Assembly (NCBI GenBank): GCA_964016885.1 | Contig: CAXHJY010000762.1 | Span: 1-64,000 of the forward strand | Direction: 5' to 3' | Length of the DNA: 64,000 nt | DNA from: Eledone cirrhosa | Lineage: Eukaryota | Part shown: positions 1,863 through 27,989 of the stretch, piece by piece | How the letters are laid out: each line of letters begins with the position of its first letter | Numbering within the stretch: the first letter of the stretch is position 1 | Position numbers and translations under genes: made by a program | Notes under the pieces: generated by a model | What the model was told of the DNA's origin: nothing | The model's database searches: none | What the model saw: only the letters and a program-made list of their open reading frames with translations

Positions 1863-2261
1863 TAAGTATGCATGTATACGTACATACATATATGTATACA
1901 GACGTACAGTAGCATGCACATATATATATATATACATATATATATACATATGCATACAGGTACACATACATATATGCACGTATCAGTTTAGCGGCGCTAA
2001 CGTCGCTTTGTTCGTTTGTAAACAAACTGAACAGCCTGAACAAAAAGGTGACGTGGTTGCCTTAACACCGTATGGCATAAATTCAGGCTGTTCAGTTTGT
2101 TTACAAACGAACAAAGCGACGTTAGCGCCGCTAAACTGATACGTGCATATATGTATGTGTACCTGTATGCATATGTATATATATATGTATATATATATAT
2201 ATATGTGCATGCTACTGTACGTCTGTATACATATATGTATGTACGTATACATGCATACTTA
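1863..2261. repeat. Fold-back inverted duplication at the 5' end of the array
   Basis: 1863-2040 is the reverse complement of 2082-2261, with a 41-nt spacer (2041-2081). The junction uses the tgaa/ttca 4-bp complementarity present in the unit. Confidence 0.95.
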
Positions 2262-5200
2262 CATTTAAGTAAGTGCCATACTAAGAGTGAGAAATGAAAT
2301 TTCGTTTTCATTTTGTTTCAATTTATCGTTTTCGGTATGCCTGACCGATTTAACTCACTCAATATGCAAATTAGGCTGCTCAGCCGTTAATTTCATAAGG
2401 AAAGTATATACTTTCGAACGTTCAACTATCTGGCAGATAGGTAAACGGTGCTGATGATAGCTAACAAGCTTGAAACTAGTACATCGTTCCTGTGTCAGTG
2501 TTGAACAAAAAGGTGACGTGGTTGCCTTAACACCGTATGGCATAAATTCAGGCTGTTCAGTTTGTTTACAAACGAACAAAGCGACGTTAGCGCCGCTAAA
2601 CTGATACGTGCATATATGTATGTGTACCTGTATGCATATGTATATATATATATATATATATGTGCATGCTACTGTACGTCTGTATACATATATGTATGTA
2701 CGTATACATGCATACTTACATTTAAGTAAGTGCCATACTAAGAGTGAGAAATGAAATTTCGTTTTCATTTTGTTTCAATTTATCGTTTTCGGTATGCCTG
2801 ACCGATTTAACTCACTCAATATGCAAATTAGGCTGCTCAGCCGTTAATTTTCATAAGGAAAGTATATACTTTCGAACGTTCAACTATCTGGCAGATAGGT
2901 AAACGGTGCTGATGATAGCTAACAAGCTTGAAACTAGTACATCGTTCCTGTGTCAGTGTTGAACAAAAAGGTGACGTGGTTGCCTTAACACCGTATGGCA
3001 TAAATTCAGGCTGTTCAGTTTGTTTACAAACGAACAAAGCGACGTTAGCGCCGCTAAACTGATACGTGCATATATGTATGTGTACCTGTATGCATATGTA
3101 TATATATATGTATATATATATATATATGTGCATGCTACTGTACGTCTGTATACATATATGTATGTACGTATACATGCATACTTACATTTAAGTAAGTGCC
3201 ATACTAAGAGTGAGAAATGAAATTTCGTTTTCATTTTGTTTCAATTTATCGTTTTCGGTATGCCTGACCGATTTAACTCACTCAATATGCAAATTAGGCT
3301 GCTCAGCCGTTAATTTTCATAAGGAAAGTATATACTTTCGAACGTTCAACTATCTGGCAGATAGGTAAACGGTGCTGATGATAGCTAACAAGCTTGAAAC
3401 TAGTACATCGTTCCGGTGTCAGTGTTGAACAAAAAGGTGACGTGGTTGCCTTAACACCGTATGGCATAAATTCAGGCTGTTCAGTTTGTTTACAAACGAA
3501 CAAAGCGACGTTAGCGCCGCTAAACTGATACGTGCATATATGTATGTGTACCTGTATGCATATGTATATATATATGTATATATATATATATATGTGCATG
3601 CTACTGTACGTCTGTATACATATATGTATGTACGTATACATGCATACTTACATTTAAGTAAGTGCCATACTAAGAGTGAGAAATGAAATTTCGTTTTCAT
3701 TTTGTTTCAATTTATCGTTTTCGGTATGCCTGACCGATTTAACTCACTCAATATGCAAATTAGGCTGCTCAGCCGTTAATTTTCATAAGGAAAGTATATA
3801 CTTTCGAACGTTCAACTATCTGGCAGATAGGTAAACGGTGCTGATGATAGCTAACAAGCTTGAAACTAGTACATCGTTCCTGTGTCAGTGTTGAACAAAA
3901 AGGTGACGTGGTTGCCTTAACACCGTATGGCATAAATTCAGGCTGTTCAGTTTGTTTACAAACGAACAAAGCGACGTTAGCGCCGCTAAACTGATACGTG
4001 CATATATGTATGTGTACCTGTATGCATATGTATATATATATGTATATATATATATATATGTGCATGCTACTGTACGTCTGTATACATATATGTATGTACG
4101 TATACATGCATACTTACATTTAAGTAAGTGCCATACTAAGAGTGAGAAATGAAATTTCGTTTTCATTTTGTTTCAATTTATCGCTTTCGGTATGCCTGAC
4201 CGATTTAACTCACTCAATATGCAAATTAGGCTGCTCAGCCGTTAATTTTCATAAGGAAAGTATATACTTTCGAACGTTCAACTATCTGGCAGATAGGTAA
4301 ACGGTGCTGATGATAGCTAACAAGCTTGAAACTAGTACATCGTTCCTGTGTCAGTGTTGAACAAAAAGGTGACGTGGTTGCCTTAACACCGTATGGCATA
4401 AATTCAGGCTGTTCAGTTTGTTTACAAACGAACAAAGCGACGTTAGCGCCGCTAAACTGATACGTGCATATATGTATGTGTACCTGTATGCATATGTATA
4501 TATATATGTATATATATATATATATGTGCATGCTACTGTACGTCTGTATACATATATGTATGTACGTATACATGCATACTTACATTTAAGTAAGTGCCAT
4601 ACTAAGAGTGAGAAATGAAATTTCGTTTTCATTTTGTTTCAATTTATCGTTTTCGGTATGCCTGACCGATTTAACTCACTCAATATGCAAATTAGGCTGC
4701 TCAGCCGTTAATTTTCATAAGGAAAGTATATACTTTCGAACGTTCAACTATCTGGCAGATAGGTAAACGGTGCTGATGATAGCTAACAAGCTTGAAACTA
4801 GTACATCGTTCCTGTGTCAGTGTTGAACAAAAAGGTGACGTGGTTGCCTTAACACCGTATGGCATAAATTCAGGCTGTTCAGTTTGTTTACAAACGAACA
4901 AAGCGACGTTAGCGCCGCTAAACTGATACGTGCATATATGTATGTGTACCTGTATGCATATGTATATATATATGTATATATATATATATATGTGCATGCT
5001 ACTGTACGTCTGTATACATATATGTATGTACGTATACATGCATACTTACATTTAAGTAAGTGCCATACTAAGAGTGAGAAATGAAATTTCGTTTTCATTT
5101 TGTTTCAATTTATCGTTTTCGGTATGCCTGACCGATTTAACTCACTCAATATGCAAATTAGGCTGCTCAGCCGTTAATTTTCATAAGGAAAGTATATACT

Positions 5201-7444
5201 TTCGAACGTTCAACTATCTGGCAGATAGGTAAACGGTGCTGATGATAGCTAACAAGCTTGAAACTAGTACATCGTTCCTGTGTCAGTGTTGAACAAAAAG
5301 GTGACGTGGTTGCCTTAACACCGTATGGCATAAATTCAGGCTGTTCAGTTTGTTTACAAACGAACAAAGCGACGTTAGCGCCGCTAAACTGATACGTGCA
5401 TATATGTATGTGTACCTGTATGCATATGTATATATATATGTATATATATATATATATGTGCATGCTACTGTACGTCTGTATACATATATGTATGTACGTA
5501 TACATGCATACTTACATTTAAGTAAGTGCCATACTAAGAGTGAGAAATGAAATTTCGTTTTCATTTTGTTTCAATTTATCGTTTTCGGTATGCCTGACCG
5601 ATTTAACTCACTCAATATGCAAATTAGGCTGCTCAGCCGTTAATTTTCATAAGGAAAGTATATACTTTCGAACGTTCAACTATCTGGCAGATAGGTAAAC
5701 GGTGCTGATGATAGCTAACAAGCTTGAAACTAGTACATCGTTCCTGTGTCAGTGTTGAACAAAAAGGTGACGTGGTTGCCTTAACACCGTATGGCATAAA
5801 TTCAGGCTGTTCAGTTTGTTTACAAACGAACAAAGCGACGTTAGCGCCGCTAAACTGATACGTGCATATATGTATGTGTACCTGTATGCATATGTATATA
5901 TATATGTATATATATATATATATGTGCATGCTACTGTACGTCTGTATACATATATGTATGTACGTATACATGCATACTTACATTTAAGTAAGTGCCATAC
6001 TAAGAGTGAGAAATGAAATTTCGTTTTCATTTTGTTTCAATTTATCGTTTTCGGTATGCCTGACCGATTTAACTCACTCAATATGCAAATTAGGCTGCTC
6101 AGCCGTTAATTTTCATAAGGAAAGTATATACTTTCGAACGTTCAACTATCTGGCAGATAGGTAAACGGTGCTGATGATAGCTAACAAGCTTGAAACTAGT
6201 ACATCGTTCCTGTGTCAGTGTTGAACAAAAAGGTGACGTGGTTGCCTTAACACCGTATGGCATAAATTCAGGCTGTTCAGTTTGTTTACAAACGAACAAA
6301 GCGACGTTAGCGCCGCTAAACTGATACGTGCATATATGTATGTGTACCTGTATGCATATGTATATATATATGTATATATATATATATATGTGCATGCTAC
6401 TGTACGTCTGTATACATATATGTATGTACGTATACATGCATACTTACATTTAAGTAAGTGCCATACTAAGAGTGAGAAATGAAATTTCGTTTTCATTTTG
6501 TTTCAATTTATCGTTTTCGGTATGCCTGACCGATTTAACTCACTCAATATGCAAATTAGGCTGCTCAGCCGTTAATTTTCATAAGGAAAGTATATACTTT
6601 CGAACGTTCAACTATCTGGCAGATAGGTAAACGGTGCTGATGATAGCTAACAAGCTTGAAACTAGTACATCGTTCCTGTGTCAGTGTTGAACAAAAAGGT
6701 GACGTGGTTGCCTTAACACCGTATGGCATAAATTCAGGCTGTTCAGTTTGTTTACAAACGAACAAAGCGACGTTAGCGCCGCTAAACTGATACGTGCATA
6801 TATGTATGTGTACCTGTATGCATATGTATATATATATGTATATATATATATATATGTGCATGCTACTGTACGTCTGTATACATATATGTATGTACGTATA
6901 CATGCATACTTACATTTAAGTAAGTGCCATACTAAGAGTGACAAATGAAATTTCGTTTTCATTTTGTTTCAATTTATCGTTTTCGGTATGCCTGACCGAT
7001 TTAACTCACTCAATATGCAAATTAGGCTGCTCAGCCGTTAATTTTCATAAGGAAAGTATATACTTTCGAACGTTCAACTATCTGGCAGATAGGTAAACGG
7101 TGCTGATGATAGCTAACAAGCTTGAAACTAGTACATCGTTCCTGTGTCAGTGTTGAACAAAAAGGTGACGTGGTTGCCTTAACACCGTATGGCATAAATT
7201 CAGGCTGTTCAGTTTGTTTACAAACGAACAAAGCGACGTTAGCGCCGCTAAACTGATACGTGCATATATGTATGTGTACCTGTATGCATATGTATATATA
7301 TATGTATATATATATATATATGTGCATGCTACTGTACGTCTGTATACATATATGTATGTACGTATACATGCATACTTACATTTAAGTAAGTGCCATACTA
7401 AGAGTGAGAAATGAAATTTCGTTTTCATTTTGTTTCAATTTATC
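2037..7444 (+). repeat. Tandem array of ~11.6 copies of a 466-bp unit, each full unit carrying a hammerhead ribozyme (retrozyme-like / Penelope pLTR-like array)
   Basis: CTGATGA core recurs at 2451, 2909, 3375, 3841, 4307, 4773, 5239, 5705, 6171, 6637 and 7103 (period 466; first interval 458 owing to a shorter internal TA tract). I noticed only three substitutions (3415, 4184, 6942). Confidence 0.97.
2439..2491 (+). ncRNA. Minimal type I hammerhead ribozyme (first of 11 copies)
   Basis: agg-ta-AACGGTG (stem I) CTGATGA t AGCT-aaca-AGCT (stem II) t GAAA CTAG TA^ CATCGTT-cct (stem I'). Intact CUGAUGA/GAAA core, GUA cleavage triplet (cut after 2481), palindromic ACTAGT stem III typical of dimer-forming minimal HHRs. 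Confidence 0.9.
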
Positions 7445-12375
<4,931 letters not shown>

Positions 12376-13378
12376 CTGTATTCTATATATACACACACAC
12401 ACACACACACAGACATATATATATATTATATTGGGAGAGAGGGAGAGAGAGAGAGCGTGTGTCTGTGTAAGACAAAAGCAAAAAAATAATGAGAAGTGAG
12501 GGAGGGTAGAGAGAAGACTGCTGGTCATTATTTCCTAGAATGGTCAATTTAAGCCGTTGTTTGGTGACATTTTTCTGTTAAATATATAGCACTGTTGTTT
12601 ACAGTCTGCTATTGAAAGCTCACTAAACATAATTAGTGAAGCGTGGAAGTTAAATGAATGAAAAACATATTATTTGTTTGGGAAATGTGAGTTCAAATTC
12701 ACTGTTTCGAATAAAACTAGGTTGTTTTAAAAATTATAAATATTTTAAAGTTATATATTTCATGTAGCTGTCGAGAGTATATATGGGATTGTCTAGTCCC
12801 GTGTCAACACTGGCTTAAAAGTCAAGGGCTCGTCTCAATTTCCGTTTAACTTTTCCATTCAGTGTGTCCAATGCCATGGAATACCTGGGGCGATACACCT
12901 ATTGTGATATCGCTGATGTGTACACATGTCATATCACAGATGTGTGCAATGATATGGCATGTTTCCGCCCCACCTCGTAACCACCGTAAAGGCCCTGTCA
13001 TCAGGGTCAATTGGTATTCACCTGGTCGGTGACTGTTTCTCTGTTGGTGTTTTACCCGAAGCTCTGCCCCCAGATCTTAATACAACACAAATGCCGTTGC
13101 ACATCCACGCTAGATTCTTTCGGCCTATAACCACTGTCATACCACCTCGGTGGTTGTCGTATTCCACACCAAGTCGATCTCAAAGATATTTTAAGCAGGG
13201 CTTGACGATGCTGGCTTCCCATCGCAGCTAGTTAGTATAAGACAGAAGGGTCGGTAAAGGGCCAGATAGCATTAGCAACTTCCTTTTTTGTGGAGGCAAG
13301 CCCCTCATCCTTGACGTGACATGCAGTCACAATTTTTCTAGCAGTAAGTCAGCGACAGGTCCAAGTTTCTTCATCACC

Positions 13379-21759: not shown

Positions 21760-21980
21760 AATGAAATAACAGGAGGCTGGACTGGTGTAAATCCTTGAAA
21801 GGTTTATTATACTATGATCATTTCAATGACCGGGTTCCATATGAATCCGGTGATATCATCAGGTAGTGGAATATAACAAAGGAATATGTAAAAAGCCATG
21901 GGTCCGAAAAACCATGGGTCCGGGAAACCAGAGACAGAGAGGGCAGCTGACCAACTAGCTTCACAGCCAGCCGCCCTCAA
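21760..21980 (-). mobile_element. HHR-bearing non-autonomous element (family B, copy 1); ribozyme at 21809-21866
   Basis: Reverse complement reads tac CTGATGA tatcaccgg...ccggtcatt GAAA TGATCA TA gtat; near-identical to 27737-27835; flanked by (TA)n on both sides. Confidence 0.8.
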
Positions 21981-21981
21981 A

Positions 21982-22025
<44 letters not shown>

Positions 22026-27596: not shown

Positions 27597-27989
27597 TTTA
27601 GGTTTGAAGGTTCACCACTGGATAGAGCTGGAGGGCGACCGGCTAAAGTGGAAGATGCTAGATGGTCGGTCGTCCTCGGGTCTATGATTTTCAGCCCTAT
27701 GGATTTTATCTGTTACATTCATTTATTATATTTCGAATACCTGATGATATCACCGGATTCATACGGAACCCGGTCATTGAAATGATCATAGTATAATAAA
27801 CCTTTCAAGGATTTACACCAGTCCAGCCTCCTGTTATTTTATTATAATATTTAACTCCGTACTCGCACCACCAACTACACAAACGAAGACGGTTGAGCTG
27901 CTTTACGTTGAGTACTCTCCATATTATTACATCAAGATTGACCATACGGAATGACCAGCTCTATCCAGTGGTGAACCTTCAAACCTAAA
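27597..27989 (+). mobile_element. HHR-bearing element (family B, copy 2) with 35-bp terminal inverted repeat, in (TA)n
   Basis: 27597-27631 is the reverse complement of 27955-27989; internal hairpin 27631-27677 and HHR 27737-27794. Confidence 0.85.
27737..27794 (+). ncRNA. Type I hammerhead ribozyme (family B)
   Basis: ATAC CTGATGA tatcACCGG-attcatacggaac-CCGGTcatt GAAA TGATCA TA^ GTAT; stem I atac/gtat, palindromic atgatcat stem III, AUA triplet (cut after 27790). Confidence 0.8.

What the first reader, a model, noticed from the sequence alone, without database searches (positions are those of the whole stretch)
21939..21978. Covarying 13-bp hairpin marks the 5' end of both family-B HHR elements
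Seen: 27631-27677 (+) is gagggcgaccggc...gtcggtcgtcctc, while 21939-21978 (-) is gagggcggctggc...gtcagctgccctc. There are two compensatory pair swaps (A-U to G-C, C-G to U-A) and two G-C/G-U consistent changes, with different loops, on the same strand as the HHR. Homology of both copies begins at this hairpin. Inference: a selected RNA structure (RT recognition, processing or a second functional module) accompanies the ribozyme.
Basis: partly seen in the sequence, partly recalled or inferred. Interest (0 to 1): 0.7.

Follow-up and report, generated by a model that had tools for sequence, protein, structure and literature searches.

The report
Hairpin at Penelope RNA start site
The hairpin is real and lies inside the end repeat of an abundant non-coding jumping gene of the Penelope type, and many inserted copies begin just before it, likely because the element's capped RNA starts there and the copying enzyme runs off its end.

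Summary
Both hairpins are in the sequence as described, fold far better than shuffles, and show both double changes; one of the two G-C/G-U changes is only a minority state in its subfamily. They are not the start of the element. Both belong to a roughly 2.2-kb non-coding Penelope-like family (4,065 exact hits of a 33-mer) with a minimal type I hammerhead, two fixed 3' ends, (TA)n targets and two-armed inversions; many copies extend 0.1-1.9 kb upstream. The hairpin base is nonetheless a strong 5'-end hot spot: 19 of 61 unselected copies that reach it stop there (about 2 expected). Ends fall off just upstream of a conserved C-A dinucleotide 4-5 nt before the stem, and AT-flanked ends at that A carry an untemplated G more often than ends 2-3 nt further in (9/54 versus 4/78, p about 0.03). 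Best reading: a capped transcription start, with copies running off the RNA 5' end. Pairing is kept across eight subfamilies, but through few independent changes, so covariation is suggestive only. Earlier scan notes describe this genome's Penelope-type 3' tail hairpins; none shown to me describes this 5' hairpin or start.

The parts
21939..21978 (-). 5' stem-loop of copy A (15-bp stem, 10-nt loop; subfamily with a 7-nt loop deletion)
21979..21983 (-). 5-nt leader; A at 21983 is the inferred transcription start and is exactly where copy A begins after (TA)n
   Evidence: junction tallies; start site itself inferred
21809..21866 (-). Minimal type I hammerhead of copy A (core from 21862, palindromic helix III, predicted cut after 21813; one helix I mismatch in this copy)
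   Evidence: architecture as in PMC4209133
21757..21983 (-). Whole copy A: inferred start site to first 3' end (END1), about 226 nt, (TA)n on both sides
27631..27677 (+). 5' stem-loop of copy B (15-bp stem, 17-nt loop); the copy begins 4 nt short of the inferred start
27737..27794 (+). Minimal type I hammerhead of copy B (helix I 27737-27740 with 27791-27794, core from 27741, predicted cut after 27790)
27845..27989 (+). Tail between the two fixed 3' ends (END1 near 27845, END2 near 27989), followed by (TA)n
   Evidence: 52 of 100 copies end at END1, 46 reach END2, 2 other
27597..27631 (-). Inverted, 5'-truncated second arm of insertion B (last 35 nt before END2), joined to the hairpin base through a 1-nt overlap
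   Evidence: direct reading; same layout in L017, L029

Best explanation
The hairpin sits in the end repeat (pseudo-LTR) of a non-coding Penelope-like element and is likely the first structure of its RNA: a capped transcript likely starts at the A of a conserved C-A dinucleotide 4-5 nt before the stem, and a Penelope-type reverse transcriptase supplied in trans likely starts at one of two internal sites past the hammerhead and runs off the RNA 5' end, which would give the many 225- or 360-nt copies that begin at the hairpin base. Shown: family structure, two 3' ends, the 5'-end hot spot, the conserved CACT(Y), the modest excess of untemplated G, and pairing kept across subfamilies. Inferred: transcription start and cap, internal priming (by analogy with Poseidon_Ac), a Hydra-clade partner, and a role of the stem in stabilising or insulating the RNA 5' end.
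For: Hot spot: 19 of 61 at-risk copies end at -7..+1, about 2 expected, Poisson p 6e-14 (100 copies taken in genome order from one contig). Genome-wide in subfamily B: 28 distinct (TA)n junctions at the base versus 3 at an equal window in the loop. AT-flanked ends across subfamilies: 12 at the C, 54 at the A, 78 at -2/-3 (+69, 65+70). Extra G: 9 of 54 at the A versus 4 of 78 at -2/-3, one-sided Fisher p 0.03; 29 of the 30 G-before-A loci examined (of 79) are true junctions. CACT(Y) is kept in long copies of all groups while the 30 nt upstream diverge. The inferred start lies 111-118 nt before hammerhead helix I; in D. virilis Penelope the start lies 46 nt before a 75-nt intron (PMC2377424) whose end maps to helix I (PMC4209133), about 121 nt. 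Untemplated G at full-length L1/SVA 5' ends is attributed to the cap (PMC3287187). Internal RT initiation at two sites: PMC11167929.
Against: No RNA data were available. The G excess is modest and most ends at the A lack a G. The edge is not sharp: 12 ends lie at the C or beyond, and the commonest ends are 2-3 nt inside the inferred start. The hairpin is also the most stable 55-nt fold of the whole unit in both subfamilies scanned, which alone could cause drop-off. 42 of 61 copies run on past the site, so longer read-through RNAs must also be templates. Only 1 of 9 upstream repeats of tandem copies starts at the site. 13 of the 19 hot-spot copies are arms of two-armed insertions and some share an insertion, so they are not fully independent; the bin was placed after seeing the data. 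No autonomous partner with this end repeat was found.
Confidence: 0.55

Rival explanations
1. Structure-induced drop-off. The RNA extends upstream, but once RT has copied both arms the RNA stem and a cDNA stem re-form behind it, strip the hybrid and release the cDNA a few bases past the hairpin base.
For: Strongest local fold in the unit (-29.7 versus next -19.7; -25.0 versus -19.8). Ends are spread over -5..+1 with a mode at -2. Most copies read through.
Against: Does not predict an untemplated G at one position nor the conserved C-A. Wobble pairs make the cDNA stem weak (-7 to -14 kcal/mol with DNA parameters). No accumulation at the 3' foot of the stem, where a template block would stop RT (4 of 78 and 2 of 74 in the bins around +47).
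Confidence: 0.25
2. Processed, uncapped 5' end. Longer RNAs (for example hammerhead-cut monomers) are trimmed by a 5'-3' exonuclease that stalls a few nucleotides before the stem, and RT runs off that end.
For: Ends cluster 0-5 nt 5' of the most stable stem; sense-strand wobbles point to an RNA-level fold.
Against: G excess at the A; the conserved dinucleotide is not needed; a simple stem rarely blocks Xrn1 and a hammerhead leaves a 5'-OH that it does not load on (own knowledge).
Confidence: 0.1
3. The stem is not selected as RNA. It is an inverted repeat kept by template switching between its arms, or conserved as DNA promoter sequence, and the hot spot comes from annealing of two cDNAs through the arms.
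For: Several two-armed insertions join through the arms and share or flip one loop (L124, L176, L161). Double changes are few and the pair count is at chance level (179/500). Penelope's internal promoter lies in the first 47 transcribed nt (PMC2377424), the span this hairpin occupies.
Against: The hot spot also holds for arms joined directly to (TA)n (28 versus 3). Arm conversion would erase wobbles, yet group-majority states include 16 G-U/U-G against 1 A-C. Shared departures keep pairing in 22 of 26 cases, private ones in 23 of 43.
Confidence: 0.1

Closest known systems
Penelope of Drosophila virilis (PMC2377424, passages; PMC4209133, parts 1-2 of 4)
   Same: Partial tandem end repeats, inverted 5'-truncated arms, start site inside the end repeat about 120 nt before a hammerhead with palindromic helix III, no TATA box at the usual place.
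   Different: No ORF here; no conserved intron or RGACGTGY element seen; a 15-bp stem occupies the first 50 nt; targets (TA)n.
Poseidon_Ac of Anolis (PMC11167929, parts 1-2 of 4)
   Same: Two fixed 3' ends downstream of the hammerhead that define a tail; AT-rich targets; copies span an uncut hammerhead.
   Different: Tail is about 145 nt rather than 30-40; non-coding; in the parts read the paper does not treat 5' ends.
Hydra clade of C-terminal EN+ Penelope-like elements (PMC8557442, passages and section 11)
   Same: (TA)n targeting and hammerhead; endonuclease fragments beside family copies carry the CxCX5C linker, and one is joined head-to-head to a family copy (L063).
   Different: The family itself codes no RT or endonuclease; partnership is inferred from one chimeric junction and shared target.
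Animal non-LTR retrozymes (bioRxiv 10.64898/2026.07.22.740005, part 1 of 5)
   Same: Non-coding, type I hammerhead, proposed non-autonomous derivatives of Penelope-like elements.
   Different: The unit is about 2.2 kb and was seen as truncated monomers, partial tandems and inversions, not as short multi-copy arrays.
Cap-derived untemplated G at full-length L1 and SVA insertions (PMC3287187, passages)
   Same: Extra G at the 5' junction at a defined start.
   Different: Here in a Penelope-like element, in about 17% of AT-flanked ends at that base, and in short run-off copies rather than full-length ones.

Membership tests
Non-autonomous Penelope-like element | Partial tandem copies forming pseudo-LTRs | tested here: met
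   Hairpin-hammerhead block recurs 2.2 kb apart in L098 (1019, 3228), L113, L114, L117
Non-autonomous Penelope-like element | Frequent 5' truncation and inverted 5'-truncated partner | tested here: met
   63 of 100 copies abut an inverted partner
Non-autonomous Penelope-like element | Optional 3' tail between two fixed ends | tested here: met
   52 end at END1, 46 reach END2, 2 other, of 100; tail longer than the usual 30-40 bp
Non-autonomous Penelope-like element | No coding capacity | tested here: met
   Longest stop-free frame 121 aa in L113, 116 and 92 aa in L130 and L137; three copies examined
Non-autonomous Penelope-like element | Identified autonomous partner sharing the end repeat or tail | tested here: inconclusive
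   Hydra-type endonuclease fragments nearby (Pfam GIY-YIG E 0.0018, below cut-off, in 1 of 2); none carries this end repeat
Minimal type I hammerhead of PLEs | CUGANGA and GAAA cores, long helix II with 5' unpaired base, 4-5 bp helix I, palindromic helix III | tested here: met
   Direct reading against PMC4209133; Rfam gathering search gave no hit
Minimal type I hammerhead of PLEs | Self-cleavage | not testable with these tools
   Needs in vitro assay
Non-LTR retrozyme | At least two consecutive short tandem units each with a hammerhead | tested here: inconclusive
   Two-hammerhead partial tandems exist but the unit is 2.2 kb, above the 1000-bp period used in the preprint's search; no longer arrays looked for
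Conserved RNA structure (covariation standard) | Significant covariation after correcting for phylogeny | tested here: inconclusive
   3 double-changed pairs, 179/500 shuffles as high; score and cells 0/500 but uncorrected for kinship; R-scape not available
Capped Pol II start (YR initiator) | Capped 5' ends at the A of a pyrimidine-purine step | tested here: inconclusive
   Indirect only: end distribution and G excess p 0.03; direct mapping not possible
MITE / DNA transposon | Fixed terminal inverted repeats | tested here: not met
   The 35-bp inverted repeat around copy B is a variable-length inverted arm

The most novel reading that the evidence does not exclude
Penelope-type reverse transcriptases routinely make a strong-stop-like cDNA: they prime internally just past the first hammerhead of a capped RNA and run off the cap, and a selected 5'-terminal stem-loop defines and protects that RNA end. 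The genome then holds hundreds of short copies that map the start site to the base and can each act as a new promoter-bearing end repeat.
Probability: 0.3. Interest if true: 0.65.

Novelty: new variant of a known kind. Interest (0 to 1): 0.45.

Why it matters
How Penelope-like elements form their 5' ends and regenerate their end repeats is open (PMC2377424: no obvious mechanism). A base-resolved 5'-end hot spot with a cap-like G in a family with thousands of copies gives a start site that can be tested directly, and a template for asking whether the RT runs off a cap or falls off behind a stem. It also shows that genomic junctions alone may map start sites in non-model animals. The family itself is an ordinary kind of element.

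Tried and rejected
Rfam scan of the window: no hit. DNA search with the hammerhead core alone returned nothing because common words are skipped; an exact pattern was used instead. Sequencing-run search: no RNA holder listed, so no reads were laid; this says nothing on expression. Phylogeny-aware counting of stem changes along branches was not done; observed states were tallied instead, which leaves the number of independent events approximate. MITE reading rejected (variable arm length). Naiad partner rejected: the nearby endonucleases are C-terminal with a CxCX5C linker. Intron like that of D. virilis considered: a TTTTCAG acceptor exists in some groups but not in A, C or E, and no conserved donor; DPE-like motif not conserved in the loop. 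Idea that short run-off copies supply the upstream repeat of full-length tandems: only 1 of 9 starts at the site. Literature: no paper held 4 of 'Penelope-like, cap, extra G, strong-stop, truncation'; one unrelated review held 4 of 'Penelope-like elements, hairpin, transcription start site, 5 truncated, hammerhead'. The library lacks most subscription papers, and Repbase/Dfam and the supplements of PMC8557442 (Hydra sequences) were not consulted, so the family may already be annotated.

Full report
Observation. The two sequences are as quoted: 21939-21978 on the minus strand and 27631-27677 on the plus strand. Each folds as a 15-bp stem on the hammerhead strand (-27.3 and -33.7 kcal/mol, z -4.1 and -5.4, 0 of 200 shuffles as stable) and much less well on the other strand. 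Pairs 8 and 10 differ on both sides, pair 5 on one side. Pair 7 G-U in copy A is a minority state, 5 of 30 subfamily-A copies. About 110 nt downstream both carry a minimal type I hammerhead with long helix II, 4-bp helix I and palindromic helix III, the form described for Penelope-like elements (PMC4209133, parts 1-2 of 4 read). Rfam gives no hit.

The element. The window lies in a 3.0-Gb genome (octopus-type according to earlier scan notes, not tested here). A 33-mer of the hammerhead has 4,065 exact matches and its reversed control none. Copies extend upstream of the hairpin by up to 1.9 kb, and the upstream body is homologous between the two window subfamilies. The sequence after the hammerhead runs on into that body, so the unit is about 2.2 kb and recurs in partial tandem (L098, L113, L114, L117). 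Three long copies examined have no long open frame. Of 100 copies taken in genome order from one contig, 52 end at a first 3' site, 46 reach a second one about 145 nt further, 2 do neither, mostly in (TA)n; 63 abut an inverted partner. These are the hallmarks of Penelope-like insertions (PMC8557442 passages), and two fixed 3' ends match internal RT initiation in Poseidon_Ac (PMC11167929, parts 1-2 of 4). Endonuclease fragments near some copies have the CxCX5C linker of the Hydra clade; one is joined head-to-head to a family copy (L063). A Hydra-type partner is inferred, not shown. So the hairpin is not the start of the element.

The hot spot. For the 100 copies I mapped each 5' end against long reference copies. 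Of 61 copies that reach the hairpin base, 19 end at -7..+1; the baseline rate predicts about 2 (p 6e-14, still below 1e-11 after a 30-bin correction). The bin was set after seeing the data, and 13 of the 19 are arms of two-armed insertions, so they are not fully independent. An independent genome-wide count avoids this: in subfamily B, 28 distinct (TA)n junctions lie at the base against 3 in an equal window in the loop (binomial p 2e-6), while 142 exact matches extend past -8.

Why there. Long copies of every group keep CACT(Y) just before the stem while the 30 nt upstream diverge. AT-flanked junctions over all subfamilies number 12 at the C, 54 at the A and 78 at -2/-3; six of the 45 form two local triplets that are probably duplications. 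An extra G, found neither in the target nor in the element, precedes 9 of 54 ends at the A and 4 of 78 at -2/-3 (p 0.03; 0.02 after collapsing the triplets). Of 79 G-before-A matches, the first 30 were inspected: 29 are true junctions, though in several two-armed cases the G can come from the partner arm. Such a G is attributed to copying of the cap in L1 and SVA (PMC3287187 passages). Window copy A begins exactly at this A (21983); copy B begins 4 nt later. The A lies 111-118 nt before hammerhead helix I, close to the roughly 121 nt implied for D. virilis Penelope (PMC2377424 passages; PMC4209133). I therefore read the site as a capped start from which RT, primed at the first or second 3' site, runs off. 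Against this: no direct RNA evidence, a soft edge, a mode 2-3 nt inside the start, read-through in 42 of 61 copies, only 1 of 9 upstream tandem repeats starting there, and the fact that the stem is the most stable fold of the unit, which supports simple drop-off as the main rival.

Covariation. From 69 hairpin-bearing copies I kept 52 for a tree built without the stem columns (17 dropped: loop-flipped or junction copies, one of each inverted pair, two with indels) and hand-picked 35 for alignment A2. On A2, 94.7% of cells pair (slid controls 23-60%); three pairs change on both sides (8:40, 10:38, 14:34); cell count and score beat all 500 shuffles, but the number of double-changed pairs does not (179/500), and kinship is not corrected. 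RNAalifold recovers 10 pairs with a covariation term of only -0.92. In eight groups, departures shared by two or more copies keep pairing in 22 of 26 cases, private ones in 23 of 43 (p 0.008, counts not independent); majority states hold 16 wobbles against 1 A-C, at five positions. Breaks exist: terminal pair 1 in group H, a bulge at pair 12 in G and H, mismatches at pairs 13-14 in F and G. The loop varies most (12 of 17 columns). This fits a selected sense-strand RNA stem but falls short of a rigorous covariation call. Some two-armed insertions join through the arms (L124, L161, L176), so template switching can also act on it.

Comparison and verdict. The element is a member of a known kind, a non-autonomous Penelope-like element with a minimal hammerhead, related in concept to animal retrozymes (bioRxiv 10.64898/2026.07.22.740005, part 1 of 5 read). 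A start site in the end repeat is known. I found no paper on a cap-like G, run-off copies or a 5' stem in these elements (open-access library only; supplements and repeat databases not seen). Earlier scan notes on this genome describe 3' tail hairpins and two-armed insertions; a look-up by this sequence found nothing. One note says the two arms use different 3' ends; in window copy B both use the second end. Verdict: real feature, first reading partly right, new variant of a known kind, interest 0.45.

Noticed in passing
window 2037-7444 (+): 11.6 copies of a 466-bp unit at 99% identity, each with a hammerhead core and palindromic helix III: a retrozyme-like array.
   Followed up: partly
L063:5200-6620 (-): 5'-truncated Hydra-type element (endonuclease frame, own 3' repeat with a divergent hammerhead-like core) joined head-to-head to a family copy through a short overlap, suggesting two different RNAs copied in one insertion.
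   Followed up: partly
L124, L161, L176: Two-armed insertions joined inside the hairpin, sharing or flipping a single loop; the arms appear to serve as annealing sites between two cDNAs.
   Followed up: partly
L130 and L137, about 1200 to 300 nt upstream of the hairpin: Subfamily H body contains an internal duplication of roughly 480 nt and differs in make-up from subfamily B.
   Followed up: no
window 21892-21925 (-): Subfamily A carries a 16-nt tandem duplication between hairpin and hammerhead and a 7-nt loop deletion.
   Followed up: no
window 12950-13010 (-): A hammerhead-like core match within a non-repetitive stretch flanked by (TA)n; not evaluated, may be chance.
   Followed up: no
window 27855-27920 (+) and just after the second 3' end in long copies: Short paired motifs follow each of the two 3' ends, like the tail hairpins of earlier scan notes; MFE folding did not give one common fold.
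   Followed up: partly
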